Of a stretch of 64,000 nt of DNA, positions 10,185 through 63,154 are shown one piece after another (within the stretch, counting starts at the first letter, position 1; the number at the start of each line of letters is the position of its first letter). Below the pieces are notes generated by a model. That model was given only the letters and a program-made list of their open reading frames with translations, had not been told where the DNA came from and made no database searches. Where the stretch lies: contig OZ024743.1 in assembly GCA_964016885.1 (NCBI GenBank), forward strand, positions 90,706,001 to 90,770,000, written 5' to 3'. The position numbers were made by a program, and so were the translations under genes. Origin of the DNA: Eledone cirrhosa (lineage: Eukaryota).

Positions 10185-11615
10185 GTAATGTGGTTAATGG
10201 CTGAGAGAAAGAAGTACTCAATACCGAAGTAGAGTTTTAATATTCAATATTATTAATGCTAAAAAGTGAGTTTTCTTACTCTGGAGTTTCGCCTGTTTAT
10301 CACAGGGTCATCAGACATGTTCTTATCTGATGACCCTGTGATAAACAAGACTCACTTTTCAGCCTTAATAATATTGAATATATATATAGATGTCTGCAAC
10401 TCGATTTGGAGTAATGCCATCACTTGATACTTAAGCATGAGCTTCACAGATGTGACTTTTTAGTCCAGCAATACCATGTATCGCAAAAAAATGTCACATA
10501 TTAAGCGATGCCTGTGCTTGAAGCTTTTTTAAATGAGGAAAGGCTTTGAATAGGGCCAAACCCACTCTCTGAACATCGAATGCATTAGTCCCCCAAAAAG
10601 AACTAGCCTACATCATTGGATGCGAATGCAGTCGCAGGTTTTATACCAGAATGATCTTCTCCTAGAGAGATGTCTTAATGAAGATTATGTGTCTCTCGCT
10701 TAAAAAACACACACACAAAAAAAAAAACAGGAGTCTTTTAAAGTTTTATTGTTGTAACAAACACTATATATATTTCATTAGCCTGGTTACACAAGACCCT
10801 GGAAACATCGTCAGGTTTGGATTGTATACATAAACACAAACAGAGAATAGGGAAAATATTTGATTGGGAGATGGCCTGCAAAATCGGTGTTATTGTTGGA
10901 GCAGACCATCTCCGATTTCAGAAGCCATCTCCGATTTCACGGGCCATCTCCGGATTAAATATATTTTCTATTTTCTCTGTTCTCCAAACACTGGGCTGTC
11001 GGCCCAGAGCCCAACACCATCTCCCCTTCCCCATCCCTTTCATCTGTGGTCCAAGAGTCCTTGCCTTTTCCTCTCATTTATGATATTTATAGTCCTTTCC
11101 TCTACTTTCCAATACAACCAGATCTGCTCTTCTTTACTTCTTTACCCCTTTATCTTTTTCTCACTACTTAATTTTGTTTTTATCTTTCTTTTTCATATTT
11201 CCATCATTGTATATTGTTATATTTGGGGATGGTCATGTTGTTCTAATATTGCCAGAAAAAAAACAGTAAAACACACTCCATGTTTGGTTTGGTTTTTGAT
11301 TCAGTATATTTTTATATTTCTATAAATAATTTAGCTTGACCAACAGTTAAAAATATAAATATAAATATAATTTTTCAAAGTTCTTTCGTCACACTTATCT
11401 GTGACATCTTCAGTGATTAACGTGTTTCCTCATCTTGTGTTCCTATGACGTTTTTATTTATTTATTTATGTTTGTTGTTGTCTCTGTATGTTTCAACACA
11501 TGATTTCATATAAAAAACCTTGCAAAACAAATACATCACCGCTACATCTTTTTAGAACTTCTTCTTTGTTTGTAATATATCACTGTGAATAACAAAACAC
11601 ACTCTATATTTTCAG

Positions 11616-11696
11616 TTACCTTCAATATAATCTTCTCAATGGTCGATGTTATAATCAATATTAAATTGAATAATTATCGGGGTCATATAAATCTTA
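11616..11696 (+). CDS. Gene A small internal exon (81 nt, phase 1-1)
   Basis: TTTTCAG acceptor, open frame ITFNIIFSMVDVIINIKLNNYRGHINL, donor A|GTAAGT; positional counterpart of the 72-nt gene B exon. Confidence 0.6.
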
Positions 11697-11871
11697 GTAA
11701 GTGATATTTCTTTTTTGTTTAATAGTTTCTGATTGTCGTTTTCCTTTCGAACATGAAATATTTCTTGTAAACAGGATCTCCCACTGAATGTAATGTTTCA
11801 TTCCTCCTCCCTCCCTCCTCTCCCCTCCCACTTCCTCCTGCCTTCCGCCTCCCCCCCCCCCCCCACCTCCT

Positions 11872-13035
11872 CATCTAACTCCCAATTCACCCAAATCACA
11901 ATTTATCTAACTCACAAATTATCTAACTCACAATTCTTCTAACTCACAATTTATCTAACTCACAATTCATCTAACTCACAATTCATTTAACTCACAATTT
12001 ATCTAACTCACAATTTATCTAACTCACAATTTATACAACTCACAATTCTCCCTACTCACAATTCATCTAACTCACAATTCATCTAACTCACAATTTATAC
12101 AACTCACAATTCATCTAACTCACAATTTATCTAACTCACAATTCATCTAACTCACAATTTATACAACTCACAATTCATCTAACTCACAATTTATACAACT
12201 CACAATTCATCTAACTCACAATTCATCTAACTCACAATTTATCTAACTCACAATTCATCTAACTCACAATTCATCTAACTCACAATTCATCTAACTCACA
12301 ATTCATCTAACTCACAATTCACCTAACTCACAATTCATCTAACTCACAATTTATACAACTCACAATTCATCTAACTCACAATTCATCTAACTCACAATTC
12401 TTCTAACTCACAATTCTTCTAACTCACAATTCTTCTAACTCACAATTCACCTAACTCACAATTCATCTAACTCACAATTCACCTAACTCACAATTCATCT
12501 AACTCACAATTCATCTAACTCACAATTCATCTAACTCACAATTCACCTAACTCACAATTCACCTAACTCACAATTCATCTAACTCACAATTCATCTAATT
12601 CACAATTTATCTAACTCACAATTCACCTAACTCACAATTCATCTAATTCACAATTTATCTAACTCACAATTCACCTAACTCACAATTTATCTAACTTACA
12701 ATTTATACAACTCACAATTCATCTAACTCACAATTTATCTAACTTAGAATTTATACAACTCACAATTCATCTAACTCACAATTTATCTAACTTACAATTT
12801 ATACAACTCACAATTCATCTAACTCACAATTTATCTAACTTAGAATTTATACAACTCACAATTCATCTAACTCACAATTTATCTAACTTACAATTTATAC
12901 AACTCACAATTCATCTAACTCACAATTTATCTAACTTACAATTTATACAACTCACAAGTCATTTAACTCAAAATTTATCTAACTCCCAATTTATACAACT
13001 CACAATTCACTTAATTTACAATTCATCTAAATTCA
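11872..13035. repeat. 16-bp tandem minisatellite (CTAACTCACAATTCAT)n, about 70 copies
   Basis: Directly visible; variants TTTAT/TTCAC/TACAAC; preceded by a C-rich tract at 11802-11870. Confidence 0.95.
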
Positions 13036-13362
13036 TATTTAAAAAAAATATATTTTCACAAAAAATAATAAATATAGTTCTCTTATGCATCAAATTTATT
13101 ACTACTATGCTTTACGGTATAGAGTTACGGCCCTTTACGTCCCGAGTTCAAATCCCACTGAGGTTAGCTTTGCCTTTCATCCATACGGGGTCGATAAAAT
13201 AAAGTACCAGTCACGCACTTGAGTCGATTTAATCGACTTTGTCCCCCTCTCAAGTTACTGGCCTTGTGCCTAAATCAGAAACAATTATTATTATGCCTTA
13301 CGACACAGAGCTATGGCCCTTTACACTCTGAGTTCAAATCCCACCGAGGTTAGCTTTCTAAA

Positions 13363-16300
13363 GGCGACTGGAGACCTTCATAGGAACTTCCTGCTCTTTA
13401 ATTTTAGTGGGTGATTGGAATGGGATCTTGGATTCATGCTGGAATTGTGTGGGATTAGCGGATAGAGGACGAGGGTGTAAAAGCCTCGCAAACCTGCTCA
13501 GACGTTTCCCACTGTCTGACAGGTACTGACCGGATTTCCCAATGGATAAACGGCATCAGGTCATCCTGACTATATCTAGATAGAGTATTTTGTAAGGAAA
13601 TAGATAGTTCTAGCATAGGTTGTCTACTATTCAAAATATTTGACTACACAGACGACAAATTCGTGATCTGCGTGGTCGACTTAGATATGCTTCATAGACA
13701 GAGACCCAGCTACTGGAAGCTAAACGCGTCATTTACAGCACGCAAAGCAGATTAGTTAAGCGGGCATTGACGGGAGCAATCATCAACAACAAATGGTGGT
13801 TTGCCCTGAAAAGGGTGATTAGAATAGAGTCTATTAGGTTAAGTAAGGCGTTAGCAATAGAGAAAAATAGAGCAGGGGAAAACTAATTAGTAAATTAGAT
13901 GAGGCGCTTAGTAAAGGCATCGTGACCGACATGCTTGTGGCGAAATTGGCCCTCGACCAATTCTTCAACGCAAAGTACAAAGGCTGCGTTATCAGAACTA
14001 GGGCGCGTGCTCTCAGACACGAGGGGGCAAAAGCCGTTCAATGGGTCCGAGTGGCGGAGGCGCGTCATGGCAACAAAGCCACGATCCTGTCTTTCGCATG
14101 TTACTCGATCTCGGGCAAATGTTACTCGATCTCGGGCAAATGTGTGCAGCTTTTCAGTGACACTTCACTCAGCTGTTTGGGGGCAACAGTGGGTTAGATC
14201 ACAGGATGGACTTTAGCGCCTACTTCGACAGACTGCCGCGGTTCTCGGCAACTGAGGCGGAGCATTGCGAAAGGCCGATAACACCCGCTGAAATACGAGT
14301 AGCAATGTCTGACTGCACGATGGGTAAATCGCCTGGTTTGGATGATCTGCCTGACGAGTTTTACGTACACATGCCAGACTTGTTCGGAGACCTCTTGGCG
14401 GATGTCTACTGCAATTGGCAGCAGAATAGGAATACTCCCATCTCTGTGAGCCGAGGAGCGGTAGTGCTGCTGAGAAAGGACCTGAACAAAAGGGACAAGA
14501 TAGATAATTTCAGGCCCATAACTCTGCTAAATGCAGAGTTCAAGATTTTGGCCCAGGTGCTAGCAAAGAGGTTGGCGCTTGTCGTCAGTGGTCTGGTGGG
14601 AGAGGCGCAGACATGCGCCATTCCAGACAGATCCACCCACGACAACCTCCACCTCTTGCGATACATCATGGAAAGGGTAGCTAAGGAACCTGGCTCGGGA
14701 GGGGCCTTGATGAATTTAAATCAGTCGAAAGCTTTCAATAGGGGCGACCATCATTATCTGGCGGCAGCCCTGATGACAGCCGGCTTGGGGTCCGTCTTCA
14801 GAAGCTGGATCGCTGCCATGCACAGCGACATCTGCTCTGTGGTGAGAGTGAACGTTCACCTTTCGGAACCGTTCAACATCATGCACTCGGTTTGCCAAGG
14901 ATGTCCCCTCTCATCCCTGTTGTACGTAGTGACTCTCAAGCCATTACTGCACAAACTGGAGACGTTGAGGGCGTCCTGCACGAACTAGGATGCGGAAGAA
15001 CCATGTCAACATATGCCGACGACGTCACCGTAGTGGTGTCGAATGCCAAACACATCGAGCACCACACTAAGAGAATACGAGGTGGTGACAGGAGCAATGA
15101 TCAACCAGGAAAAATCAGTAGGCCTGCAACTCGGCACCTGTAGAGGCAAGTCTATGCCGTCCAACAGCGTCATCGGGCGCTAGACGGACAGACCGGTTAA
15201 ATTGCTAGGGGTCTGGTTCGGTCCGGACCTCCAGACGGACAAAAACAGGGAGGAGGTGACGAGCAAGGTGGCTTCTCTCACCCAGAAATGGGCCGAGAGG
15301 AAGCTATCCCTGAAAGGTCAAGCGGAGGTGGCGAACGCGTACATCGCATCCATCATCTACTACCGCCTGACCATCGTGCCTTGTCCTAAGCCTTGCCTGA
15401 CTGCACTGGAGCATTTGCTCTATTGCTTTTTGTGGAAGGGACGTGCTCCGATGGTCAGGCGGTCCATCTGCTGTCAACACCCGCTACACAGAGGGCTGGG
15501 CATGCTGTGGCTGATGATACGCAGACATACGCTCAGGCTACGACATCTCCACTTCTTCCTCGACGGTGATCAGGTGTGGTCACCCTTTGCTAGACACATG
15601 TTTTCCCAGCTCGTCTACTTGATGGAGCTGCAGTCCTGGGTCAAGCGAAGACCGAGAGGGAGCGCTTGGAGACTGGAATGTCTTCAGGCGCTCACAGCCT
15701 TCGACCAATCGGGCAGTGTGATCGGGGGAAACTCCACCTTGGCGTTCTATAGAGGATTAGTGGAGGGGAAGAGCGACGACTTACTTGGAGAAACTCTAGG
15801 CGTCGACGAAAATCAACTAGCCAATCCCTTCGGAAGAACTTTCGGGCCGGGGCCTATGGACAACTTCCAGAAATCCCTGGCCTGGCAGTGCTACCGAGGA
15901 GCTTTGCCAGTTCGGGATAAACTCTACAGGCATGGAGGTGCCGTCAGCAGGGCATGTCCGAGATGCGCACAGGGCGACGAAACCATCCTGCACGCACTCG
16001 TCCAGTGTCCGAGAATTGCTGACTTGTGGGTTTATGTCGAACACCTGCTGTCGCGTGTAGGACGGATCCGGCTATCAGCTGAGTCCATCGTGAGGATTGC
16101 CCCGCCCTCTTCCTTTAGCCGGGAAGGGCAGGCAGTTTTTATCTGTCTGGTGGCCATGGCGAAAGAGATAGTATGGTGGACACGTTTGAAAGGGCTGAAG
16201 ACGAGCACTTACCTCTTCGGTGATGCTCTGATTAACTTTTTCAAATTTCATTTGAAAAGGAAAATCAGGGTAGAGAGGGAAGTGCTCTCTTGCCAGCATT

Positions 16301-16616
16301 TTGTTGAAAATGGGTGAGAGAAGCAAGAATGGCCCGAGTGAATGGGCCTACTCTGAGTATGTGTCTGTAAATTAAAGGTGGAAAACTGGGAGAGGGCACT
16401 TGCCCTGGTGGTCAGGGTCACTGTGGCCTTTTAATGGGCTTTCTCCACAAATGTCCCTCGGAAGTCTCCCCCCTATTTGGGAATTTTTCATTGTTATTTT
16501 TATTACATCCTCTGTTTTTGTTTTTTTACACGCAGAAATGCCCATTTGTACCGTCCTGTATTGTCCTGTACTGTCCTTAAGGTCTACTTTATGTAAGCCC
16601 TTGTGGTTAATAAAGA

Positions 16617-16653
<37 letters not shown>
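13363..16653 (+). mobile_element. 5'-truncated, degenerate Tx1/L1 LINE copy
   Basis: Colinear with ~19227-22579, with stops and frameshifts (ORF pieces 14206-14988, 15202-16317); (TTA)n tail. Confidence 0.92.
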
Positions 16654-16860
16654 GGCGACCTACGTAGTAAATCGTATCATCGTGAGCTCCGCAAAGGTTT
16701 GTTATTTTCGTTTGTTAAAAATTGCCATTTATGGAAAATTTTATTGTTAACTGTTTATAAGCACACATACATTGTTTTCCGAAAAGGACACCCAAAAAGA
16801 TTGGGGCCTTGTGCCCAAAATTTTAACTTTTATTATTATCCAAAAATTTCTTTGAAAAAA

Positions 16861-18824
16861 ATGGCTAATTCCCCTCTGCACGAAGCAGCTGAAAGCCTTC
16901 CTCACAAAATAACACCTCACACCGACACCACCATTGTAAATGTTACTACGTTTGCCAACACAAAAAAAAATATAAGCAGTAGCAATATTTTAAATTTGTC
17001 TCAGGCAGACATTCATTTCCCGCCATTACCAATGACTGCAGGTGTTAAAGCCTCCACCACCACCACCACCGCGACAACCACCACCCCCACCACCACCGCG
17101 ACAACAGAAACAAAAGAAGAAAAAAATAAATTAACTCGTGATGTCGAAATGAAATCAAGCAAAATGGACTCTTCCGCACCAAAGACGACTGACGTCACCA
17201 CCACCACAACTGAAACTAAAATTAATATTAACACAAATAACGATAGCAACAACAACAACAATGACATTATAAAACCGACCCTCAGTTTCGCCATAGTAGC
17301 AAAACAATTTGAAGCATTCACGGTAACTCAAGACGATTTAGAAAATGCCAAACAAATGGTAAAGAAAAATGGGTACAGGGTCAGCCCCCCCCCCACCTAA
17401 TAAAATGGAGCATCGGCGCCTATGCACCGTGTCGTATAGAACAATAAATGTAAAATCGCGCCGAGTGGAACGGGCATCCGAGTCCCAAATCCAAAAAGCT
17501 TTGGGACATGTGTGGGCAAGAAAAACCCACATCAGACGTGGGCAAAAGTATGGAACCGTGGATGTGTTCTTTGAAACACCAGAGGAGGCTAGAGAACACT
17601 CCATGGCCCCATTAAAAAGTGACGACTTCACACTCGTCCCAAGCTATTGTGGCCAGAGACTCGTAAAGATCAGGGTGACCCACGTTCCACCGGCCATCGA
17701 AATTCCCTGGCTAATAGCGGCTGTCCTCGCCGGCATCGAAGCCAACACGAAAATAATAGCAATAGCAAAAGAAAAGCAGGAAAACTGGTCCGGATCTGGG
17801 ATGGAGCTCCTAATCCAAGCGGACCAAAAAAGCATTGAGGAGATCCCAGAGGTAATAGACCTCACTGACGGCAGCCACCTCACGGTAATTGTCGAGGGCA
17901 GAAGACCTAGGTGTGTCGTTTGTGGTGAAGGAACCCACCTAAGGGCTTTCTGCCCTCAGGCTAAAAGGTTGAGGCCACCTCTCCTACCCACCCCAGTGAC
18001 ACAACCATCAACACCACCAGTAGCAGAGATGGCAGCAACAACTGTAGCAGCAACAACAGAAGCAACTATAACAGCAACAACCCCAGCAACAGTAGCAGAA
18101 CCAACACCACCACCACCCAACGCTTCAGAACTAGCACCAGCGCCTACACCATCCACCACACCACAACCAAAACTAACGGCTGTGGAAGATTTTCCACTCC
18201 CCGGCCTATCACAACTGGAGACAGATTGTGACGACGAGGAGTGGGAAACGATATCCGGAAAAAAAAAGAAACCAAAAAAGAAAAAATTCTCTTCCTTCCC
18301 CCTCCAAAAACAAAATACAGAGGGAAACAAATAAACTAAGAAACAAAAAAGTTAGGACAGATATGCCACCATCCACACCAGCATCACCAACCCCATCAAC
18401 CCAAACACCAACACCATCACCATCATTAACTCCAACACCACCATCACCTACACCACAAAAGTCACCAAAATGCGAAACAGAAACAAACCCACAACAAACG
18501 CAAACAAAACAAAACAACCAAAACGATACACACTACACAGCATTAAATTTGAACAACAAGCAATTATTACACTACATCCAACACAACACCAGCATCACAG
18601 AAAAAGACTACACAACAACCCCAAAATTCACACCACCTCCACACATACAAATCACTCGCATCACACAGAAAACGTACATGACACTAAAACAAAAATTCCC
18701 CAAAGACATCGGAGACTTCCGACAAGCACTCTCCAGGAGGATTTATAAGGACATCCTTCCTGAGGAGGCCACAAGCAGTGAAAAGGATGGAAAAACCGTC
18801 CTTCCCCTACGAGAAGTAAGGTAA
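16861..18824 (+). CDS. Tx1 ORF1 (gag-like), broken by two +1 shifts at homopolymers
   Basis: MANSPLHE... stops after a C10 run (~17385-17394); next frame has CVVCGEGTHLRAFC (CX2CX4HX4C); a second shift near an A9 run (~18259-18267) leads to the frame ending at 18824. Confidence 0.7.
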
Positions 18825-18858
18825 GTGGTCTTTCCCATCTTTTCCACTCCTTTTCAAC

Positions 18859-21800
18859 ATGACCTCACTCAGAATAGGCAGCATAAATGCGCGTGGCTTG
18901 GGGTCGTCATGGAAGCAGGGCCACCTGCTCAACGACCTCAGGTCACTAAACATAGATGTAGTGGCCATCAGCGAGACCAGAATCTCCGAAGCACAGGCTT
19001 TCGCACCGATCTTCGGCGGCTACGATGTGTACGCATCTCCCAGCCGTCCGGGATCGGGGGGAGGAGTTGCTGTGCTTTTTCGGAGAGGTTTGGATCTTGC
19101 CATACGGGCCATCTTCCTGGACCCAGAAGGTAAGTTGGTGGTGCTGGACGTGACCAGCGGAGACGGGCAAGCTTTCAGGTTAGTGGCCGTCTATGCCCCG
19201 ACAGGAGCAGGGCGGCCTGATTTCTTCCGGCGTCTGGAGACCTTTCTTGGAACGTCCCGCTCTTTAGTGTTAGTGGGCGACTGGAACGGGATCTTAGATG
19301 CACGCTGGGATTGTGTGGGATTAGTGGATAGGGAAGGAGGGTGCAAGAGTCTCACCAACCTGCTCAGACGTTTTGAACTGTCTGACAGGTACCGAATGGA
19401 TTTCCCGAATGTACCAATGTGGACTTGGACAAATCGCATAGGGTCATCCAGATCATATCTAGATAGAGTATTTTGTAGGGAAATAGATAGGTCTAGCATA
19501 GGCTGTCCACAATTCAAGATAGTCAGCTACACGGACCACAAATTCGTGATCTGTGTGCTTGACTTAGATAGGCTTCATAGACGAGGACCCGGCTACTGGA
19601 AGCTAAACGCGTCCTTACCAGCGCGCAAGGCCTACAGAGACCGGATTAGCGAACTAGTTAAGCGGGCGTTGACGGGGGCCATCGTCAACAACAAGTGGTG
19701 GTTTGCTCTGAAAAGAGCAATTAGAATAGAGTCCATTAGGTTTAGTAAGACTTTAGCAATAGAGAAAAATAGAGCAGAGGGAGAATTAGTTAGAAAATTA
19801 GATGAGGCGCTTAGCAAAGGCATCGCGACCGACGTACTTGCGGCGAAATTGGCTCTTGACCAATTCTTCAATGCAAAGCACGAAGGCTGCGTTGTCAGAG
19901 CTAGGGTGCGTGCTCTCAGACACGAGGGGACGAAAGCCGTTCAATGGGCCCGAGTGGCGGAGGCGCGTCGTGGCAACAAAGCCACGATCCGGTCTTTGGT
20001 GGACCACGACGGGCGCATGCTACTCGATCCTGGGCAAATGTGTGAAGCTTTTCAGCGACACTTCGCTCAACTGTTCGGGGGCAGTGGCGGGCCGGATCGA
20101 GGGATGGACTTTAGTGTCTACCTCGACGGACTGCCGCGGCTTTCGGCCACTGAGGCGGAGTATTGCGAAAAGCCGATAACAACCGCTGAAGTACGGGATG
20201 CAATGACTAGTTGCACAAGGGGTAAATCGCCTGGTTTGGATGGTCTGCCCTATGAACTTTACGTACAAATGCCAAACTTGTTCGGAGGCCTCTTGGCGGA
20301 CGTCTACTGCAACTGGCAACAGAACGGGAGAATTCCCAGCTCTGTGAGCCGAGGAGCGGTGGCGCTGCTGAGAAAGGATCCGAACAAGGGGGATAACATA
20401 GATAATTTTAGGCCCATAACTCTGCTAAACACAGAGTTCAAGATTTTGGCCAAGGTGCTAGCAAAGAGGTTGGCGCTTGTCGTTGGTGGTCTGGTGGGAG
20501 AGGCACAGACATGCGCCATTCCCGACAGATCCATCCACGACAACCTCCACCTCATGCGATACAACGTAGAGAGGGTAGCTAGGGAACCTGGCACGGGTGG
20601 GTCTTTGATCAATTTAGATCAGTCGAAAGCCTTCGATAGGGTCGACCATCGTTACCTAGCGGCAGTCCTGAGGGCGGCTGGCTTTGGGCCCGTCTTCAGA
20701 GGCTGGATCGCTGCCATGCACAGCGACATCTGCTCTGTAGTGAGAGTGAACGGTCATCTTTCGGAACCGTTCAACATCATGCGCTCGGTCCGCCAAGGAT
20801 GTCCCCTCTCGTCCCTATTGTACGTATTGACTCTCGAGCCATTACTGCACAAACTGGAGACGTTGAGGGGGGTCCCGCGCGAACTAGGATGCGGAAGATC
20901 CGTGTCAGCATATGCCGACGATGTCACCGTAGTGGTGTCGAACGCCAAACACATCGAGGCGATCGGCACTACACTAAGAGAATACGAAGCGGTGACAGGA
21001 GCAATTATCAACCAGGAAAAGTCAGTGGGCCTGCAGCTCGGCACCTGGAGAGGCAGGTCCATGCCGTCCAACAGCGTCGTCGGGCGCTGGACTGACGGAC
21101 CGGTTAAATTGCTAGGGGTCTGGTTCGGTCCAGACCTCCAGACGGACAAAAACTGGGACGAGGTGACGAGCAGGGTGGCTTCTCTCACCCAGAAATGGGC
21201 CGAGAGGAAGCTATCCCTGAAAGGTCGAGCGGAGGTGGCGAACGCGTACATCGCATCCGTCATCTACTACCGCCTGACCGTCGTACCTTGTCCTAAGCCC
21301 CGCCTGACTGCGCTGGAGCGTTTGCTCTTTCGCTTCGTGTGGAAGGGACGCGCTCCGATGGTCAGGCGGTCCATCTGCTGTCAACACCCGCTACGTGGAG
21401 GGCTGGGCATGCCGTGGCTGATGATGCGCAGACACGCGCTCAGGCTACGACATCTCCACCTCTTCCTCGACGGTGATCAGGTGTGGTCGCCGTTTGCTAG
21501 ACACGTTTTTCCCCAGCTCGTCTCCTTGACGGAGCTGCAGTCCTGGGTCAAGCGAAGACCGAGAGGGAGCGCTTGGAGACTGGAATGTCTTCAGGCGCTC
21601 ACAGCCCTCGACCAATCGGGCAATGTGATCGGTGGAAACTCCACCTTGGCGTTCTATAGAGGATTAGTGGAGGGGAAGAGCGACGACGTACTTGGAGAAA
21701 ATCAAGGCGTCGACGAAAATCAACTAGCCAATCTCTTCGGAAGGACTTTCGGGCCGGGGCCTATGGACAACTTCCAGAAATTCCTGGCCTGGCAGTGCTA

Positions 21801-22275
21801 CCGAGGAGCTTTGCCAGTTCGGGATAAACTCTACAGGCATGGAGGTGCCGTCAGCAGGGCATGTCCGAGATGCGCGCAGGGCGACGAAACCGTCCTGCAC
21901 ACACTCGTCCAGTGTCCGAGCATTGCTGACTTGTGGGTTTATGTCGAACACCTGTCACGTGTAGGACGGATCCAGCTATCAGCTGAGTCCATCGTGAGGA
22001 TTGCCCCGCCCCCTTCCTTTAGCCGGGAAGGGCAGGCAGTTTTTATCTGTCTGGTGGCCATGGCGAAAGAGATAGTATGGTGGACACGTTTGAAAGGGCT
22101 GAAGACGAGCACTTACCTCTTCGGTGATGCCCTGATTAACTTTTTCAAATTTCATCTGAAAAGGAAAATCAGGGTAGAGAGGGAAGTGCTCTCTTCCCAG
22201 CATTTTGTTGAAAGATGGGTGAGAGAAGCAAGTATGGCCCGAATGAATGGGCCTTCTCTGAGTATGTGTCTGTAA
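18859..22275 (+). CDS. Tx1 ORF2: APE endonuclease, reverse transcriptase, C-terminal zinc finger (1138 aa)
   Basis: SINARGL, ISET, VGDWN, SYLDR, YTDH (APE); KSPGLDG, FRPITLLN, QGCPLS, YADD (RT); CPRC...HTLVQC. Confidence 0.95.
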   Translation: MTSLRIGSINARGLGSSWKQGHLLNDLRSLNIDVVAISETRISEAQAFAPIFGGYDVYASPSRPGSGGGVAVLFRRGLDLAIRAIFLDPEGKLVVLDVTSGDGQAFRLVAVYAPTGAGRPDFFRRLETFLGTSRSLVLVGDWNGILDARWDCVGLVDREGGCKSLTNLLRRFELSDRYRMDFPNVPMWTWTNRIGSSRSYLDRVFCREIDRSSIGCPQFKIVSYTDHKFVICVLDLDRLHRRGPGYWKLNASLPARKAYRDRISELVKRALTGAIVNNKWWFALKRAIRIESIRFSKTLAIEKNRAEGELVRKLDEALSKGIATDVLAAKLALDQFFNAKHEGCVVRARVRALRHEGTKAVQWARVAEARRGNKATIRSLVDHDGRMLLDPGQMCEAFQRHFAQLFGGSGGPDRGMDFSVYLDGLPRLSATEAEYCEKPITTAEVRDAMTSCTRGKSPGLDGLPYELYVQMPNLFGGLLADVYCNWQQNGRIPSSVSRGAVALLRKDPNKGDNIDNFRPITLLNTEFKILAKVLAKRLALVVGGLVGEAQTCAIPDRSIHDNLHLMRYNVERVAREPGTGGSLINLDQSKAFDRVDHRYLAAVLRAAGFGPVFRGWIAAMHSDICSVVRVNGHLSEPFNIMRSVRQGCPLSSLLYVLTLEPLLHKLETLRGVPRELGCGRSVSAYADDVTVVVSNAKHIEAIGTTLREYEAVTGAIINQEKSVGLQLGTWRGRSMPSNSVVGRWTDGPVKLLGVWFGPDLQTDKNWDEVTSRVASLTQKWAERKLSLKGRAEVANAYIASVIYYRLTVVPCPKPRLTALERLLFRFVWKGRAPMVRRSICCQHPLRGGLGMPWLMMRRHALRLRHLHLFLDGDQVWSPFARHVFPQLVSLTELQSWVKRRPRGSAWRLECLQALTALDQSGNVIGGNSTLAFYRGLVEGKSDDVLGENQGVDENQLANLFGRTFGPGPMDNFQKFLAWQCYRGALPVRDKLYRHGGAVSRACPRCAQGDETVLHTLVQCPSIADLWVYVEHLSRVGRIQLSAESIVRIAPPPSFSREGQAVFICLVAMAKEIVWWTRLKGLKTSTYLFGDALINFFKFHLKRKIRVEREVLSSQHFVERWVREASMARMNGPSLSMCL

Positions 22276-22518
22276 ATTAAAGGTGGAAAACTGGGAGAGG
22301 GCACTTGCCCTGGTGGTCAGGGCCACTGTGGTCTTTTAATGGGCTTTCTCCACAAATGTCCCTCGGAAGTCTCCCCCCTATTGGGGAATTTTTCTTTGTT
22401 ATTTTATTTCATCCTCTGTTTTTTTTACACGCAGAAATGCCCATTTGTACCGTCCTGTATTGTCCTGTACTGTCCTTAATGTCTACTTTATGTAAGCCCT
22501 TGTGGTTAATAAAGAAAA

Positions 22519-22579
<61 letters not shown>

Positions 22580-25500: not shown

Positions 25501-26500
25501 TCCATTTTCACTCCACATAAGTGAGTGGTGACTTTAGCCGATGCATAATAGAGATGATTTAAATCAGTAATGTTTAGTTTGTTTGTGATGATAATGTTTT
25601 TGAGAATTATGTTAGTCTTGTGTATTATCTTTTGGTTCTGTTTGGAGTTCTGGATCTTAGGGAGGGTGTCTCGTTCCCCCATGTCAGATTCTTTCATTTT
25701 CATCCATTCGATCATAATTTCATCCTTCAAGTTGGCAAGTTCATTCTCATTCATTTCTTTATCATTTACGATCTCATTGTTTTCATTTTGAGTTTCATCT
25801 TGAGCATGCACTCCCTCCACTTTTTCGATCCTTTCTTTAATTTGTTCTGTTGTCAGTGATTCCGCCCCAACCCTGGGATTCGAAGTGTTACAATTTACCT
25901 CGTTTTCACTGACACATGTTTCATTTTCCCTTTGCTGACTTTGTGCTAATAGCTTGATCTGATCCATTTCTATATCAGTTAGTAACTGTTTTTAAACAAT
26001 ATATCTTCGTATATTGGCTAGTTTGTTACTGTCAATATAGTTTCTGTTTTCGGGATGTTTCTTTTTCCAGTTGATATATGTCTGTTCTGTATTCAATGTA
26101 TTTTATGTGTAGTACATGGCAGTGTAGAAAGCCTCAGAGACTTCTTTATTATCTTCCCTTGACCATTTTTCTCTCTTTTTCTTTGGATTTCTTGGTGGTG
26201 AGCATGGAGGGCCAACAGTAGGAGTATTCCGGTTAGCTGATTTTTCGACCCCAGTCTGGTTCCTCTCTGAGGGACGCAGCCCTTTTTGACACGGGTGACG
26301 GCCGATCCGGTATGAGATTTAATCATTTGACATTTACCTTATTTTGTCGCGTTTTATCCTTATCCGCCAAGGGGTAATCATTTCGTGTTACCACTTCAAG
26401 GACGAGTGTCAACCAAGACTAGAGGGGTCGTCCTCCCCTAGAGACACGGCTATTCCCCGCCGGCCGCCATCCCGGTATTTCTTGGTCACGGGGTTTTCTT
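22580..26500 (-). mobile_element. R4/Dong-clade RLE LINE, family 1, near full-length with a stop and frameshifts
   Basis: [27 protein letters not shown] (23769-25967); in-frame TAA at 23769-23771; CHVC...HIISMC zinc finger and RPD...EKLSKY restriction-like endonuclease; (TAA)n tail. Confidence 0.9.
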
Positions 26501-26519
26501 TTTTGTTGTTTTTTTAAAT

Positions 26520-27469: not shown

Positions 27470-27479
27470 ATTATTATTA

Positions 27480-27539
<60 letters not shown>

Positions 27540-43153: not shown

Positions 43154-43330
43154 ATAGAAATGGTTTCTACAGGACTAGAACTATTTCATTCAAAGGAAAT
43201 CATCAGCTTTCCTGATGAGTTCCTTTGAATGAAGCAGTTCTAGTCCTGTAGAAGCCTTTTCTATATTAAATTCTGTATATATTCTACTAATGTATTGAGT
43301 ACCTTACTTTCTGTGGTTACCCCTAATTGA
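43154..43330. mobile_element. Fold-back mini-element with hammerhead cores on both strands
   Basis: Arms 43154-43206 and 43212-43264; each strand reads CTGATGA-(G/T)TTC CTTT GAAT-GAA(A/G)-YAG TT CTAG-TC; a second copy is at 57374-57575. Confidence 0.7.
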
Positions 43331-43689
43331 ACCCGGGACTCATATATATATGCATGCACTCACATGCACACTTCCAATTGTTCACACATACACACTTTTA
43401 CATACATATAAACGATATACAATTATCCACCTACAATTTAATTTGAGAATTTTAAATACATAAGAAAATTAAACTTCCTCAAAATCGTCATAAAGATCCT
43501 ATATTCATCCCTTTATAGAGTTTTATCTTGTATATAACATTATCTACTTACTGTATATTATGAACTTTGGATAAGCTTGACGATCTTAGTATCCTATATC
43601 ATATATATCTCACTTACCTGCTTTATGAAAATAAAACATTTGTTTATTAACAAGATAATGGATTTTTCTTTATTGTTTCACCTTCCTCG

Positions 43690-47826: not shown

Positions 47827-48055
47827 GTATGCCGCCATCAGATGATATTTAGAGCATTTATGTATATCAGTAAATTTTATGGTCACTTTTGCTGGATGGA
47901 AAGAGTATTTTATATATATAAGTATAAAGAAAGTGCTCAAGTGCAGAAATACTATAAAGATAGCTTCAGCTGCTTTTAATGGCGTTCACCCTATTTTATA
48001 AGCTATCTTTATAGCATTTCTGCACTTGAGCACTTTCTTTATACTTATATATATA

Positions 48056-49003: not shown

Positions 49004-49004
49004 A

Positions 49005-50724: not shown

Positions 50725-53482
50725 ATCGTTATCACTATATTTATATTTACCCATCTTCATCTCACCATTATCATCATCATCATATTTATTACTATATTTA
50801 TATTTACCCACCTTCATCTCACCATTACCATCATTATATTTATCACTATATTTATATTTACCCACCTTCATCTCACCATTATCATCATTATATTTATTAC
50901 TATATTTATAATTATCCACCTACTCACAATTATCATCATTATATTTATCACTATATTTATATTTACCCACCTTCATCTCACCATTATCATCATTATATTT
51001 ATTACTATATTTATAATTACCCACCTTCATCTCACCATTATCATCATTATATTTACTACTATATTTATATTTACCCACCTTCATCTCACCATTACCATCA
51101 TTATATTTATCACTATATTTATATTTACCCACCTTCATCTCACCATTATCATCATTATATTTATCACTATATTTATATTTACCCACATTCATCTCACCAT
51201 TATCATCATTATATTTACTACTATATTTATATTTACCCACATTCATCTCACCATTACCATCATTATATTTATCACTATATTTATATTTACCCACCTTCAT
51301 CTCACCATCATTATATTTATCACTATATTTATATTTACCCAACTTCATCTCACCATTATCATCATTATATTTACTACTATATTTATAATTACCCACCTTC
51401 ATCTCACCATTATCATCATTATATTTATTACTATATTTATATTTACCCAACTTCATCTCACCATTACCATCATTATATTTATCACTATATTTATATTTAC
51501 CCACCTTCATCTCACCATTATCATCATTATATTTATCACTATATTTATATTTACCCAACTTCATCTCACCATTATCATCATTATATTTACTACTATATTT
51601 ATATTTACCCACCTTCATCTCACCATTATCATCATTATATTTATCGCTATATTTATATTTACCCACCTTCATCTCACCATTACCATCATTATATTTACTA
51701 CTATATTTATATTTACCCACCTTCATCTCACCATTATCATCATTATATTTACTACTATATTTATAATTACCCACCTTCATCTCACGATTACCATCATTAT
51801 ATTTATCACTATATTTATATTTACCCACCTTCATCTCACCATCATTATATTTATTACTATATTTATATTTACCCAACTTCATCTCACCATTATCATCATT
51901 ATATTTACTACTATATTTATATTTACCCACCTTCATCTCACCATCATTATATTTATTACTATATTTATATTTACCCACCTTCATCTCACCATTATCATCA
52001 TTATATTTACTACTATATTTATATTTACCCACCTTCATCTCACCATTATCATCATTATATTTACTACTATATTTATAATTACCCACCTTCATCTCACCAT
52101 TACCATCATTATATTTATCACTATATTTATAATTACCCACCTTCATCTCACGATTACCATCATTATATTTATCACTATATTTATATTTACCCGCCTTCAT
52201 CTCACCATTACCATCATTATATTTATTACTATATTTATATTTACCCGCCTTCATCTCACCATTATCATCATTATATTTATTACTATATTTATATTTACCC
52301 ACCTTCATCTCACCATTATCATCATTATATTTACTACTATATTTATATTTACCCACCTTCATCTCACCATCATTATATTTATTACTATATTTATATTTAC
52401 CCATCTTCATCTCACCATTATCATCATTATATTTACTATTATATTTATATTTACCCATCTTCATCTCACCATCATTATATTTACTACTATATTTATATTT
52501 ACCCACCTTCATCTCACCATCATTATATTTATCACTATATTTATATTTACCCACCTTCATCTCACCATTATCATCATTATATTTACTACTATATTTATAT
52601 TTACCCACCTTCATCTCACCATCATTATATTTATCACTATATTTATATTTACCCATCTTCATCTCACCATTATCATCATTATATTTACTATTATATTTAT
52701 ATTTACCCATCTTCATCTCACCATCATTATATTTACTACTATATTTATATTTACCCACCTTCATCTCACCATCATTATATTTATCACTATATTTATATTT
52801 ACCCACCTTCATCTCACCATTATCATCATTATATTTACTACTATATTTATATTTACCCACCTTCATCTCACCATCATTATATTTATCACTATATTTATAT
52901 TTACCCATCTTCATCTCACCATTATCATCATTATATTTACTATTATATTTATATTTACCCATCTTCATCTCACCATCATTATATTTACTACTATATTTAT
53001 ATTTACCCACCTTCATCTCACCATCATTATATTTATCACTATATTTATATTTACCCACCTTCATCTCACCATTATCATCATTATATTTACTACTATATTT
53101 ATATTTACCCACCTTCATCTCACCATCATTATATTTATCACTATATTTATATTTACCCATCTTCATCTCACCATTATCATCATTATATTTACTATTATAT
53201 TTATATTTACCCATCTTCATCTCACCATCATTATATTTACTACTATATTTATATTTACCCACCTTCATCTCACCATCATTATATTTATCACTATATTTAT
53301 ATTTACCCACCTTCATCTCACCATTACCATCATTATATTTACTACTATATTTATATTTACCCACCTTCTTCTCACCATCATTATATTTACTACTATATTT
53401 ATATTTACCCACCTTCATCTCACCATTACCATCATTATATTTATCACTATATTTATATTTACCCACCTTCATCTCACCATTG
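50725..53482. repeat. 54/48-bp minisatellite, roughly 50+ units, with a 252-bp higher-order period
   Basis: Unit CCACCTTCATCTCACCAT(TATCAT)CATTATATTTACTACTATATTTATATTTAC; the CCATCTTC variant in a 54-bp unit recurs at 52401, 52653, 52905 and 53157. Confidence 0.95.
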
Positions 53483-53756
53483 TCAATATCATATACACCT
53501 TCATATGGACCTGAATTAACAAGGTTCTGTTTAACTATACCATTGCTGGCAATCTCCATTCTTTCAGAATATGTACGCAAAGCATCATTGTTTAACGTCA
53601 GATCAAAGCAGCCAATATCCAATATGATTTGTTTCAGTTCTTTTGTCATTACCCTGAAGCAATGATTTGCTGTACTGGAGATATTTCTGGTTCTGGCTAT
53701 TTGGAAACGAAGTACATTTTGTTGTGGATCTTTATTCTTGATGTTTCCGAACGTTC
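50920..53756 (-). CDS. Gene B terminal exon: Cys-domain C-terminal half plus (GEMKVGKYKYSxKYND[DG]N)n repeat
   Basis: Pyrimidine tract and AAG acceptor at 53757; phase-1 frame RTFGNIK...NHCFRVMTKELKQIILDIGCFDL joins the 909-aa ORF in frame; TAG at 50920-50922, after which the same frame stays open to TGA at 50683. Confidence 0.7.
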
Positions 53757-54689
53757 CTTTAAAGAAATGTATAAAAGAAATTAAAAGAAAAACATTTTCT
53801 TGAACGGTTATGATGATGTTTTTGACTTGAAGTCATTGTGATTTGTTTGCATGTTTCTTTTTTTTGTGTGTGTTGTGAATCCTTTTAAATATTGAATAAT
53901 CTTTAAAGGCTCAGGCAGAGGCGACAGAGCGGTTTCCATGACCCCCTTTTAAATGTCTATATGATTTGCAAGAGGAAATGAAAAAATTATTTTTATAACG
54001 AAATGCATTCCGCCAAAAGCCTCTAAACACCAAGTGATGGAGTTAAACCGGGTTAAGGATTATGTTTAATAGTCCAGAACAGAAATAGCTTTCCACACAT
54101 TTTGCGTCAACCCTATTACGTTTCGCTAACTACAGTCGATCCGAGACTATGGTATAAAACACATGCACAAGGTATCGCCGCGCAGGCAAATAAAATCCAC
54201 AGTATGATTGTGCCTCATTCAATATTCTAATTATAAGATGCTAGATTTATTCCTTGTAAGCTTAGACATTTGTTTCTGGATGCTTGGAAACACTAATATC
54301 TTAGCATAATTTGAAACCCTGGCTATATCGAAGGAAGTTGTTTGGCGGACACTGTTAAAAAAGTTAAGTAGAGGGTTTTTCACATCACAAACTATTTCGC
54401 CATGACTATCAGATAGATAAAAGCTGACTGCAAATTCTGACCAAAGGAAGGTTGCGAGGCGATCTTTACAATGGACTCAGCTGAGAGCTGTATCCATACA
54501 CATCATACACATGATAGCAGCTTTTCGATGTAACTCCACTAGCAATGCTCTGGTAGGGTTGGTTCGATATAAACCTTCAGGCAGATAGGAGCTGAAACGA
54601 AGTTACGAGCAGGGTAGCCAATCTCACCCCAAAATAGACTGAGAGAAAGCTTTCTCTGAATGGTCGGCCAAGGGTGTAGGACGCATTTA

Positions 54690-57367: not shown

Positions 57368-58006
57368 TATATAAAGTTTAATATAGAAATGGCTTCTACA
57401 GGACTAGAACCTGTTTCATTGAGAAGAAATCATCATGAAAGCTTTCCTGGTGATGTCTCCTGAATGAAACAGCCCTAGACCTGTAGAAGCCATTTCTATA
57501 TTAAACTTGATGTTTACACTCTACTAATGTATTGAGTACTTTATTAACTGTGAGTACCCCCGATGAACCCGGGATTCACACGCACAAACACACACACACT
57601 CATTCACACACAAACATTCACACACAAACACACACACATTCACACACACACATACACACACACAAACACACATATATCAGTATTAAACTAGTTAGACCAT
57701 TACTCAACAGAGTACTCGATACTTGGGATAGTAGTAGTCTGGAACTAGCTGTTGAAGAGCTCAGACGTCGGACCCTGACCCTTTTTAATATGTGTGTATA
57801 TATAAACCTGTTTAGCTTGCTTCGTTTTTTTGTGTTAGGTGGCTGGTGGCTTCTTAACCGCCATTCTCAGTTTGTTTGACCTCTATAACCTATGTTTATT
57901 GCTCTGGTCTTTTTTTAGTTCATGGAGCGCTTGCCGCATAACTCGGAAATTGCGTTTCGCTTTGTTTTCGACTACTGCCGAAATTCGATCTCGCTGAAAT
58001 TATATT

Positions 58007-58080
<74 letters not shown>

Positions 58081-58274
58081 AACAAGTATGACCCCTACGG
58101 CAGAGCTCAAGCCGTTTCGACGGCTAATTCTGGAATTAGTCCAGAATTAGCCGTCGAAACGGCTTGAGCTCTGCCGTCGAGGTCATACTTGCTCCTATTA
58201 CCCACTCTATTACCCTAAGTATTGAGTACTTTGGTGCGTTATGGTTCGTCTGGTTCCTTACCACATTTCCTTCG

Positions 58275-58357
<83 letters not shown>

Positions 58358-59252: not shown

Positions 59253-59295
<43 letters not shown>

Positions 59296-59564
59296 GTATA
59301 ATAAACAATACAATATAATTACCTCATTACCAGAGGTTTCCTGAATAAGACGAATACGAAAAACGTCCTCATTCGTTCGTCGGACAAGGCAACGAATGAG
59401 GCAACGAATGAGGACGTTTTTCGTATTCGTCTTATTCGGGAAACCTCTGGTAATGAGGTAATTATATTGTATTGTTTATTATACATTAAATTTTGCTCTG
59501 GTACTTACATAGAGCACTCTTCACTCCTATGACTTTTTCAATTTTCAACGGAAACTTCAATACT

Positions 59565-60120: not shown

Positions 60121-60413
60121 CCAACAACACAAACGAAGACGAGTGAGTTGCATTACGTCGAGTGCTCGCCCTAATATTACATCGAGGTTGACTATACGGA
60201 ATGACCACTTCTATCCAGTGGTGAACCAACAAACCTAAATGTATATCTATATATATATATATGAAAAATGGCGTGCTGCGTGGTTGCAAATGGGTTACAT
60301 ATGAATAAAATTAGTCCTTCATCAGTGATCTTCCAACCTTCATTGGTATTTCTTCTTTAAAGCGAAGAAATACCAACGAAGGATGGAAGATCACTGATGA
60401 AGGACTAATTTTA

Positions 60414-60491
<78 letters not shown>

Positions 60492-61006: not shown

Positions 61007-62202
61007 AATAGGGAGCGCACAAGGCAAAAACAATGGAAAAAACAACGGAAAGACGGACAGTCCTATCTCCTCAGTCAACCTCTGGAAATCCCTATGGTTT
61101 TGGTACATTATGATCGATATCATTCATTTCAGTGCACATTGGGACACAACAAAACAAGCAGAAACAAGTTATGCATTTAGGAAAATTACACAAATATAGA
61201 GTGTGCATGGGCTTAACCAAAGGGGGGAAATATAGAAAGGAGACAAATAGTAAAACAGAAGATAATACGGACTGTTGTCGTCGTGTGGACAAAGAAGAAC
61301 ACTGAGGCATAGAAAAGGTAAGAAGGGAGATGGGGAAAACAGGCCGGGCAGTGTGATGTCTATTATATGGTAGTTTTAAAAAAAGCCCGCAAGGCTAAGT
61401 CTTTAGAATATATCTATATACTACTAAAACTCTGTGATTGCTTGCTTGCTTGTCTGTAATGTAATACAGACAAAAGGGTGCATAATGGGAAAATACTTTG
61501 AAAGGAAGTTGACCCTGAAATGGGAATAGAAATGGAATAAAACAAGTTTGGCGTAAATCGAAGAACGGGTTCATGAGATATGGGTTTTTTCGGGGTACCT
61601 TCCAGGGGCGAAGGGTCCGTGCATGCAACGCATGCAGTGCATGTGTTATAGAACCTTGAGTTGATTAATTGCGTCGGTTGAAGCAAGCAGAATTTTGGCT
61701 GCTTACTAAAACGTATAGACACAAAAAAAGATAACCCCCCCACACACACACGACAGCTTTAGGGCAAGCAGAATTTTGACTGCTTACTAAATCGTAGACA
61801 CACAAAAAGATAACACACACACATACACACTAGATAACACTACATGCGGCTTTGACCGGGAGGGTCATTTAGAGGGTATTGGGGAGGGGGCTAAGCCCCA
61901 CTTTCCGCCATGGCGATTGGACTGCATGCCCTGCGTTCCAGGTTACCCTTCACCACTGGTACCTTCATAGACAGAGAGAGAAAGATGGAGAGAAAGAGAT
62001 AGTGGTTGTGAGAGAGTAGATTGAAAGAGAGACATAGATAGGGAGAGGGAGAGGAGGCAGAGAAGAAGAATGCAACAGAGAGAGGGAGAGAGAGGGAGCG
62101 AGCTGGTGGTGTTGTGTATATATATGTGAGTGTATATGTATGTGTCTGTGATCTATATACACTGGTCATAGACACACACATACATTCATATACACACATA
62201 CG

Positions 62203-62250
<48 letters not shown>

Positions 62251-62480
62251 ATATATGTCTGTTGGAAGCTCCCGAATAGTGGGGTTACTAATTTTATTAT
62301 TGGTCTATTATGCAAATTAGTGTCGGAGAGGTTTAAATCCCATACATTTAAATTAGCCGACACTAATTTGCATAATAGACCAATAATAAAATTAGTAACC
62401 CCACTATCCGGGAGCTTCCAACAGACATGGTCGCATTCTTTTAAGGGTATGTCAATATTTATTTTATAAAACTGATCTAT

Positions 62481-62550
62481 ATTATATTTTATCTGATGAA
62501 AGCGCACCATAATTTGCTTTGGTGTCCTTGAAATATGTATAATGAAATAA
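62481..62550 (+). ncRNA. Minimal type I hammerhead ribozyme in a solo pLTR
   Basis: CTGATGA 62493-62499; helix II AAGCGCACCA/TGGTGTCCTT; GAAA 62530-62533; TATGTATA as at 646-653; helix I TATTTTAT/ATGAAATA. Confidence 0.75.
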
Positions 62551-63154
62551 ATATGGTTTTATAAATATAGTTTCCATTTATAAATATATTGTATTTTTAT
62601 TCCAAAAATTTGTTGAGTGCTTTATATCAGTTATAAAAATATTTGCTTGTTGTATCCCAACAAATTAAATATAACTTCTACATATATATATATATATATA
62701 TATAGTGAAAGAGTGAAGAATAACAGGTCGGCTGTACAAAAAGGGTTTATTTACAGTACTAACAGTTGTTTCATTGATCAGGTGAGTTTAAAGGCCCCTA
62801 ATCACTAGAAATAGCGTCACTCGACCTTAATTACACACTGTAATTAAGGTCGAGTGACGCAATTTCCACTGATTAGGAGCCTTTAGACTCACCTGATAAA
62901 TGAAACAATTGTCAATACTGTAAATAGAACCCTTTTTGTACAGCCGACTATGTTATTCTTCACTCTTTCACTATTATTACTCCAAGAACCACCTGCATGG
63001 AAACTCGTAAACTAGCTACCTAACTAAGGAAACTTCTTGTAGAGTCAATCAACACCGAACATTAAAACTATCCATAGTACAGAGTAGTGACAACCTCTCA
63101 CTGGATTACCTTAAACGACACCTTGTTATCCCCCTCTCTCTCTATCTCTGTCTG

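What the first reader, a model, noticed from the sequence alone, without database searches (positions are those of the whole stretch)
10213..62974. At least eight mostly unrelated fold-back insertions beside (TA)n, many sharing a TTGAGYRCT-like tail
Seen: hairpins at 10240-10381, 43154-43264, 47911-48055, 57374-57508, 58076-58198, 59292-59488, 60299-60420, 62255-62428 and 62702-62974, each abutting TA runs. Apart from the 43154/57374 pair the arms share no obvious sequence, yet a short motif recurs near the 3' end: TTGAGTACT (10213-10221 rc, 57532, 58222), TTGAGTACC (43295), TTGAGCACT (48026), TAGAGCACT (59510), TTGAGTGCT (62613). Inference: a conserved cis-signal for RT/endonuclease recognition across many TA-targeting Penelope families, and a dense source of dsRNA for ADAR editing, including inside an intron of gene A and just upstream of the first identified gene B exon.
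Basis: partly seen in the sequence, partly recalled or inferred. Interest (0 to 1): 0.7.

Follow-up and report, generated by a model that had tools for sequence, protein, structure and literature searches.

The report
Twin RNA hairpins mark retroelement ends
The nine fold-back repeats are cut-down, mirror-image ends of Penelope-like jumping genes that land in TA microsatellites (a known pattern), and the shared motif is one strand of a small conserved hairpin that intact elements carry twice, a few bases past both places where copies end, so it likely tells the element's enzyme where to start copying.

Summary
All nine hairpins and seven motif sites are real. They belong to eight high-copy families with a fixed 3' end at (TA)n, a variable fold point and a one-sided tail. 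This layout is published for Penelope-like elements (PLEs). Four families link to Hydra-clade ORFs, whose TA targeting and hammerheads are also published.

The motif is not a free linear signal and is not enriched by raw count outside the window. It is the 3' side of a bulged hairpin, RCTC-stem-loop-NN-GAGY-RCT. Its base pairs covary across 17 families here and across 64 Hydra sequence clusters from metagenomes. Intact elements carry it twice before the ORF, and copies end about 0-10 nt before one or the other. I infer that the two hairpins position two reverse-transcription starts, which would explain the PLE tail.

Limits: 47911 and 60299 do not fit, and only 11 of 79 sampled fold-backs passed a strict motif test. 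ADAR editing and the gene context were not shown. I found no paper on the hairpin, but this scan noted it before on other DNA; the twin-hairpin lead came from those notes and was tested here.

The parts
10184..10381 (-). Family F10240 insertion: tailed direct copy 10322->10184 on minus, inverted arm to 10381 with an internal deletion; (TA)32 at 10119-10182
10277..10314 (-). canonical type I hammerhead core to cleavage triplet
   Evidence: pairing read
10213..10235 (-). tail hairpin ACTC-TAC-TTCG-GTA-TT-GAGT-ACT
43154..43341 (+). Family F43154 insertion: fold-back 43154-43264 plus tail to 43341; hammerhead decayed in this copy
43281..43303 (+). tail hairpin (first stem base changed in this copy), motif TTGAGTACC at 43295
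47911..48055 (.). Family F47911 fold-back, both arms ending at the same site; TTGAGCACT inside the arms (48026 and mirror 47932) without an RCTC partner; no ORF or hammerhead linked
57374..57574 (+). second F43154 insertion: fold-back 57374-57508 plus tail; decayed hammerhead 57447-57485
57518..57540 (+). tail hairpin
58076..58275 (+). Family F58076 (Hydra clade, intact 717-aa ORF elsewhere): fold-back 58076-58198, hammerhead 3' half 58156-58178, tail to 58275
58204..58230 (+). tail hairpin 1 of F58076
59292..59564 (+). Family F59292 (Hydra clade, 712-aa ORF elsewhere): fold-back 59292-59488, 12-bp junction duplication 59387-59413, tail to 59564
59495..59518 (+). tail hairpin 1 of F59292 (G-C version: GCTC...TA-GAGC-ACT)
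60262..60420 (-). Family F60299: fold-back 60299-60420 plus a tail of about 37 nt on minus; about 470-nt tandem unit; no motif, no ORF linked
62255..62682 (+). Family F62255: fold-back 62255-62428 (arm shorter than usual), canonical hammerhead 62493-62541, tail to 62682; Hydra-type RT+EN ORF in an inverted neighbour of one copy (L183)
62599..62621 (+). tail hairpin of F62255
62702..63132 (+). Family F62702 (Hydra-type EN upstream in L215, L216): fold-back 62702-62974, tail of about 160 nt
62979..63048 (+). long-loop hairpin variant ACTC-CAAGAA...TTCTTG-TA-GAGT just past the arm end
   Evidence: (in the MFE fold)
63067..63088 (+). second, imperfect motif inside the F62702 tail (family majority CAGAGTACT)
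   Evidence: (z -3.5)

Best explanation
The fold-backs are short insertions of Penelope-like retroelement ends in (TA)n, at least four of the eight families being Hydra clade, and the motif is the 3' strand of a bulged hairpin present twice in front of the ORF, which likely positions the element's protein for two reverse-transcription starts.

Shown: layout ORF - 3'UTR - hammerhead - inner end - hairpin 1 - outer end - hairpin 2 - ATG; covariation of the hairpin; copy ends just before a hairpin; both arms from the same source subfamily.

Inferred: the hairpin acts as RNA; the protein, probably as a dimer, binds each hairpin and nicks both strands of a (TA)n target. Each 3' end pairs with a UA about 6-8 nt upstream of a hairpin and primes cDNA. 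The cDNA started at hairpin 2 contains the tail with hairpin 1; the cDNA started at hairpin 1 lacks it. Being primed from opposite strands they lie inverted, and their truncated ends are joined by end-joining repair, giving a variable loop. The result is (TA)n - short arm - loop - longer copy with one-sided tail - (TA)n.
For: Family structure: every hairpin is a high-copy family (790-3734 first-look candidates). 202 of 225 loci have TA/CA right after a fixed 3' end; 131 of 225 have an inverted arm; the fold centre varies while the arm's outer end clusters (F58076 18 of 23 at -79..-82; F62255 8 of 10 at -101/-103; F62702 10 of 12 at -160..-164; the window copies are among the 225).

ORF links. 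L386 has 717-aa ORFs in 3531-bp tandem units.

Second hairpin: it starts 6 nt after the outer end in F58076 (by eye 26 of 29 printed loci) and F59292 (17 of 28, the rest truncated). Both hairpins are in the MFE fold of L386.

Covariation: in 17 families chosen on sequence anchors only, the outer pair is A-T in 10, G-C in 4, unpaired in 3; inner pairs 47 of 51 vs shuffle mean 29, max 40 of 5000.

Independent set: 64 metagenome clusters found by protein homology. 25 of 35 with upstream DNA carry a hairpin, 12 carry two; 37 in 8.4 kb vs 9 in 118 kb of ORF. Inner pairs 68/75, 50/71, 34/47, each above every shuffle; the 3' copy ends 0-4 nt before a hairpin in 12 of 18.

Arm ends: within -3..+10 nt of the hairpin base in 13 of 16 unselected and 93 of 117 other cases. 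Arms agree at a subfamily-diagnostic T/A column in 41 of 41 pairs (two loci counted on both strands).

Published Hydra consensus sequences, read by eye: 3 of 6 carry the exact hairpin, and Hydra-1_Ajap has two at its 5' start. Two RT starts bracketing the tail and cleavage of both strands were shown in vitro for a Poseidon PLE (PMC11167929).
Against: No binding or priming experiment exists for any Hydra element.

The hairpin is thermodynamically weak: z below -2 in only 2 of 12 folds, and not in the MFE for several window copies.

F47911 and F60299 make the same kind of fold-backs without the hairpin. Only 11 of 79 fold-backs in 1 Mb pass a strict test for it (control 1.2%; the same test passes only 3 of 8 in the window). 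F62702 has two motif-like sites inside one tail, which does not fit a simple two-site scheme. F43154 and F10240 were not linked to an ORF.

Of six published Hydra consensuses, two are near-variants (Crog, 1_Amil) and one (Obim) shows no clear hairpin. Families are related by descent, so shuffle controls overstate significance. PMC11167929 reports starts inside an AC-rich stem-loop and without homology to the target, unlike the UA pairing proposed here. 41/41 arm concordance fits snap-back copying equally well.
Confidence: 0.7

Rival explanations
1. One cDNA is made from the outer start, folds back and copies itself (snap-back). The inner end is where that copying stops or is cut, at hairpin 1 read as single-stranded DNA, or where the endonuclease recognises the element's own tail DNA.
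For: Arms are from the same subfamily in 41 of 41 pairs. Loops hold duplications and A-runs. PMC11167929 states that the D. virilis endonuclease needed the tail to recognise plasmid DNA (the original paper was not read). AGYRCT is a degenerate palindrome.
Against: Hairpin 2 lies beyond the outer end and is not copied, yet the spacing to both ends is alike. Solo direct copies also end at the inner site: short reads of a related subfamily run into (TA)n there (table 7), as do metagenome 3' copies. G-U pairs occur in the stems. The palindrome is often broken (GAGC-ACT).
Confidence: 0.15
2. The hairpins serve translation, RNA stability or transcription in the 5' leader, and copy ends fall near them only because A/U-rich linkers there pair with the TA target.
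For: Hairpin 2 sits 40-70 nt before the start codon. The sequence before each hairpin is A/T-rich. End positions spread over about 10 nt.
Against: Other A/T-rich stretches in these ends are rarely used. Only 4 of 117 arms ran through the hairpin. Spacing to the ends is far tighter than to the hammerhead.
Confidence: 0.1
3. The hairpins are MITEs or fold-back DNA transposons with TA target duplications.
For: 47911 is a full palindrome between TA runs; 13 of 19 arms in that family end at the same site.
Against: The fold centre varies per copy, 94 of 225 copies have no inverted arm, and tails are one-sided. Four families continue into RT/GIY-YIG ORFs.
Confidence: 0.03
4. Long-read fold-back artefacts of the assembly.
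For: The junctions of the window copies were not bridged in short-read data (no listed piece spans the stretch).
Against: Arms differ by 1-17%. The outer arm end falls on the same base in many unlinked loci. Illumina reads show opposite-strand joints in the F62255 family (77 and 8 reads, one RAD-seq run).
Confidence: 0.01

Closest known systems
Hydra clade of C-terminal EN+ Penelope-like elements (Craig et al. 2021, PMC8557442; Hydra-1_Obim, Hydra-2_Amil, Hydra-1/2_Ajap, Penelope-13_HM)
   Same: ORF of about 710 aa with RW(K), DKT, CxCX5C linker, no CCHH, CxxC/CxH; (TA)n insertion; hammerhead near the 3' end; inverted 5'-truncated copy; one-sided tail.
   Different: The paper does not describe the tail hairpin ('hairpin' 0 hits in the main text; 'stem' 2 hits), although 3 of its 6 Hydra consensus sequences contain it. 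Tails here are about 57-160 nt, longer than the 30-40 bp stated. Several hammerhead cores are non-canonical.
PAc (Poseidon of Anolis) internal initiation (Frangieh et al. 2024, PMC11167929)
   Same: Two RT starts that bracket the tail, both target strands cut and extended, AT-rich target, uncleaved hammerhead RNA as template.
   Different: Different clade. There the start is inside an AC-rich stem-loop within the ORF and no conserved cross-family signal was named; here ends lie just upstream of a covarying hairpin in the 5' leader.
Non-LTR retrozymes as non-autonomous PLE derivatives (bioRxiv 10.64898/2026.07.22.740005)
   Same: Short hammerhead-bearing PLE ends in high copy; tandem non-coding units (F60299, F47911 are tandem units).
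   Different: Retrozymes are head-to-tail arrays with a hammerhead in each unit; these are head-to-head fold-backs, and F60299/F47911 show no canonical hammerhead.
LINE-1 twin priming (recalled, no call)
   Same: An inversion produced by priming from both target strands.
   Different: In L1 the two pieces cover different parts of the RNA and the internal start is not fixed; here both arms copy the same stretch from two fixed sites.

Membership tests
EN+ Penelope-like element | single ORF with PLE-type RT and C-terminal GIY-YIG endonuclease | tested here: met
   F58076 717 aa and F59292 712 aa, with YRDD and YIG/YVG read by eye; 2049 homologues at E<=1e-20. Pfam and PDB scans gave nothing. F62255 and F62702: partial ORFs only.
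EN+ Penelope-like element | tandem/inverted pLTR structure, 5' truncation, one-sided tail | tested here: met
   all eight families; 3531-bp tandem units
Hydra clade | CxCX5C linker, no CCHH, CxxC and CxH flanking conserved E and N | tested here: met
   read by eye in L386, L387 and L183, L215/L216 (first Cys changed in the last two) against the definition
Hydra clade | RWK and DKT motifs | tested here: met
   L387 RWK and DKT; L386 RWR and DKT
Hydra clade | insertion into (TA)n | tested here: met
   202 of 225 loci have TA/CA after the 3' end
Hydra clade | canonical hammerhead near the 3' end | tested here: inconclusive
   canonical core in F10240, F43154, F62255; variant cores in F58076 (U3/A8-like), F59292, F62702; cleavage not testable
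Hydra clade | monophyly with named Hydra RTs in a tree | not tested
   no tree built; the published sequences were only read in the supplement
Hydra clade (F43154, F10240) | linked ORF | tested here: inconclusive
   none within 1.5 kb of 30 copies each; assignment rests on hammerhead plus hairpin
Hydra clade (F47911, F60299) | ORF, hammerhead, tail hairpin | tested here: not met
   filed only as PLE-like in architecture
MITE / fold-back DNA transposon | fixed terminal inverted repeats in every copy | tested here: not met
   variable fold centre; arm absent in 94 of 225
ADAR substrate | transcribed and A-to-I edited | not testable with these tools
   no run on record as RNA

The most novel reading that the evidence does not exclude
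Hydra-clade PLEs, sister lineage to telomerase, use a duplicated protein-binding RNA hairpin as a ruler that fixes both reverse-transcription starts on one template and drives two-strand priming in (TA)n. This would be the first clade-wide initiation signal for any PLE and a direct cause of the one-sided tail and the inverted pLTR.
Probability: 0.55. Interest if true: 0.75.

Novelty: new variant of a known kind. Interest (0 to 1): 0.58.

Why it matters
How PLEs start reverse transcription, and why insertions carry a tail on one side only, is an open question (PMC8557442 section 15; PMC11167929). A defined hairpin of about 25 nt with covariation, a fixed spacing to both ends and an intact young source element (L386) turns it into a simple mutate-and-move experiment. 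It also gives a diagnostic for annotating Hydra-clade ends, which automated pipelines can misfile as MITEs or SINEs. Fold-backs are common in this genome (79 in 1 Mb sampled), so they are a plausible but untested source of double-stranded RNA.

Tried and rejected
Rfam scan: only sub-threshold miRNA-like hits to the hairpins, no hammerhead family reported.

Raw enrichment of the 9-mer outside the window: not enriched.

Fixed distance to the hammerhead cleavage site: rejected, 25-57 nt.

A directional A/G difference between arms in F58076 (7:0) first looked like editing or two templates. In the larger set it became 7:2, with all 7 in loci selected by a query bearing that A, so it was rejected as ascertainment. 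Overall arm differences are symmetric (C>T 57, T>C 46, G>A 46, A>G 44).

Read evidence: no RNA holder listed. Run X4 of unknown kind has high depth over hammerhead and tail, but this cannot be read as expression. Locus-specific short-read bridging of a junction remains undone.

Other blanks: Pfam on window ORF fragments and candidate host exons, and on full Hydra ORFs; PDB; ARAGORN on the tRNA-like part of F47911, 0 genes in 4 loci. A strict regex for two hairpins within 170 nt found none relevant in the loci then held; twins appeared only after fetching ORF 5' ends. Read-through copies of F10240 were not examined (one search returned 114 places, no DNA).

Literature searches without a description of the hairpin. 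The library lacks most subscription journals; Cervera and de la Pena 2014, Arkhipova 2006 and Pyatkov 2004 were not read, Repbase entries were not seen, and bioRxiv supplements are closed.
Full report
Observation. The nine fold-backs are at the stated places with arms 83-99% complementary, and only 43154/57374 resemble each other. The seven motif sites are correct. TTGAGYRCT occurs 7 times in the window against 1.88 expected, but one match is in a LINE ORF and one is a mirror copy. In 600 kb of unselected genome the count equals the shuffled expectation (24 vs 16-25). What is enriched is context: 45 of 175 GAGYRCT sites have a TA run 25-95 nt downstream (ten control heptamers 2-12%, background 6.5%), and 25 of those 45 have an upstream RCTC partner against 6 of the other 130.

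What the fold-backs are. The window lies in G000, a 3.0-Gb genome; that it is a cephalopod is my untested guess. Each hairpin belongs to a dispersed family with 790-3734 first-look candidates. Over 225 best-matching loci, which include the window copies, 202 have TA or CA directly after a fixed 3' end and 131 carry an inverted arm. The fold centre differs between copies, but the arm's outer end clusters at an inner site about 57-163 nt before the 3' end in six families, about 40 nt in F60299 and at the end itself in F47911. Loops contain duplications and A-runs. This is the published layout of PLE insertions: an inverted 5'-truncated copy and a tail on one side (PMC8557442, passages). It is not a MITE pattern and not a plausible assembly artefact.

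Clade. Longer copies of F58076, F59292, F62702 and F62255 adjoin GIY-YIG ORFs with a CxCX5C linker and no CCHH. Read-through copies lead into ORF starts. F58076 has many long open frames, including 717-aa ORFs in 3531-bp tandem units, and F59292 a 712-aa ORF. Their motifs match the definition of the Hydra clade, for which (TA)n insertion and hammerheads are already reported (PMC8557442 section 11; supplement part 2). No tree was built. F43154 and F10240 have canonical hammerhead cores and the hairpin but no ORF link. F47911 (about 390-nt unit with tRNA-like boxes, ARAGORN negative) and F60299 (about 470-nt tandem unit) have neither. A strict hammerhead descriptor finds 36 in 600 kb against 0-1 in shuffles; 8 of 28 clusters carry the motif downstream and 20 do not, some of them perhaps because they end at the inner site.

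The motif is a hairpin. Among 385 motif sites selected without any pairing requirement, the outer pair is A-T in 184, G-C in 55, G-T in 3, mismatched in 12, and 131 have no partner. In 17 families the inner three pairs form in 47 of 51 cells (shuffle mean 29, maximum 40). Related families inflate this contrast. Folding energy gives little support: only 2 of 12 stretches have z below -2.

It occurs twice. Earlier notes of this scan proposed twin hairpins; I tested that. In F58076 and F59292 a second hairpin begins 6 nt after the outer end and precedes the ATG (by eye 26 of 29 and 17 of 28 printed loci). Read, a TA dinucleotide shared with the target starts 8 nt before hairpin 1 and 6 nt before hairpin 2 in both families. 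Inverted arms stop within -3 to +10 nt of the hairpin base in 13 of 16 unselected and 93 of 117 other cases, and 4 run through. The distance to the hammerhead cleavage site is 25, 30, 34, 41, 56 and 57 nt in six families, so the anchor is the insertion end, not the ribozyme.

Outside this genome. 78 metagenome loci found by protein homology fall into 64 clusters. Of 35 with upstream DNA, 25 have a hairpin and 12 have two, at about -105 to -135 and -40 to -70 from the ORF; 17 of 50 have one downstream; ORFs hold 9 in 118 kb. The bulge starts with T in 54 of 54 and ACT follows in 45 of 54, neither being required by the filter. With anchor-only selection the inner pairs exceed all shuffles at three positions, and the 3' copy ends 0-4 nt before a hairpin in 12 of 18 cases. 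In the six published Hydra consensus sequences (supplement parts 52-53 of 59, read by eye) three have the exact hairpin, Hydra-1_Ajap twice; two have near-variants; one shows none clearly.

Mechanism. For a Poseidon PLE it was shown in vitro that both target strands are cut and extended, that two internal RT starts bracket the tail, and that uncleaved RNA is the template (PMC11167929, parts 1-2 of 4 read). Applied here, by inference: each hairpin places the protein so that a nicked (TA)n end primes just upstream; two cDNAs from opposite strands are joined at their truncated ends. The arms share subfamily marks in 41 of 41 F58076 pairs, so they come from one source; this does not separate twin priming on one transcript from snap-back copying. 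Cases against a universal rule: F47911 and F60299, the extra motif within the F62702 tail, and the low strict rate of 11 in 79 fold-backs per Mb (control 1.2%; the test also misses 5 of 8 in the window).

ADAR and gene context. No run on record as RNA was listed. The four runs laid show the same variant types in DNA and unknown libraries and no A>G excess. Candidate host exons could not be named. Both claims stay open.

Novelty. Architecture, target and ribozyme are known. The twin hairpin was not found in seven searches, nor in PMC8557442 (passages, sections 11 and 15, parts of the supplement), PMC11167929, the retrozyme preprint (parts 1-2 of 5 and a term search) or PMC13282606 (passages). 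Subscription papers and Repbase notes were not available. This scan has reported the same element from other windows, so this is a further independent-sequence test, not its first sighting. Verdict: a new cis-element in a known clade, function inferred; interest 0.58.

Noticed in passing
   Followed up: partly
L386 (3531-bp units); one search list: F58076 has dozens of long open frames and head-to-tail arrays, so it is probably active; its hammerhead core reads like a U3/A8 covariant with a palindromic stem III loop.
   Followed up: partly
L128, L145 (family of window 47911-48055): About 390-nt unit with tRNA-like A- and B-box sequences, PLE-style fold-backs and an optional tail of about 45 nt: possibly a tRNA-derived passenger of a PLE. 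ARAGORN negative.
   Followed up: partly
window 60262-60420; L161, L167, L170, L172, L173: About 470-nt non-coding tandem unit with a 37-nt tail and half a hammerhead core; mobiliser unknown, possibly Naiad-like.
   Followed up: partly
F43154 and F10240 loci (L001-L060): Most copies stop at the hammerhead's 5' edge (fold centres about -130 to -140), which may mark a transcription start or an RT stop; partly shaped by my query length.
   Followed up: no
window 50729-53485: 54-bp tandem array (about 53 copies) inside a 970-codon open frame on the minus strand (50920-53832); no Pfam match.
   Followed up: partly
window 1700-2645, 4400-5700, 34090-34765: Decayed PLE coding fragments: two Hydra-type and one with a CxxxCxxC linker (Neptune/Naiad-like).
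   Followed up: no
window 13363-22552, 23259-30059, 43647-46366, 36623-40558: L1/Tx1-like, R4/Dong-like and RTE-like LINE ORFs and a Helitron-like Rep/helicase region (names recalled from motifs, not tested).
   Followed up: no
window 11871-13030: 16-bp-based satellite of about 1.16 kb.
   Followed up: no
L288, L322, L079, L256: Other Hydra families whose hairpins end GAGC-TT or GAGC-TG instead of GAGY-RCT, so the trailing triplet is not universal.
   Followed up: no
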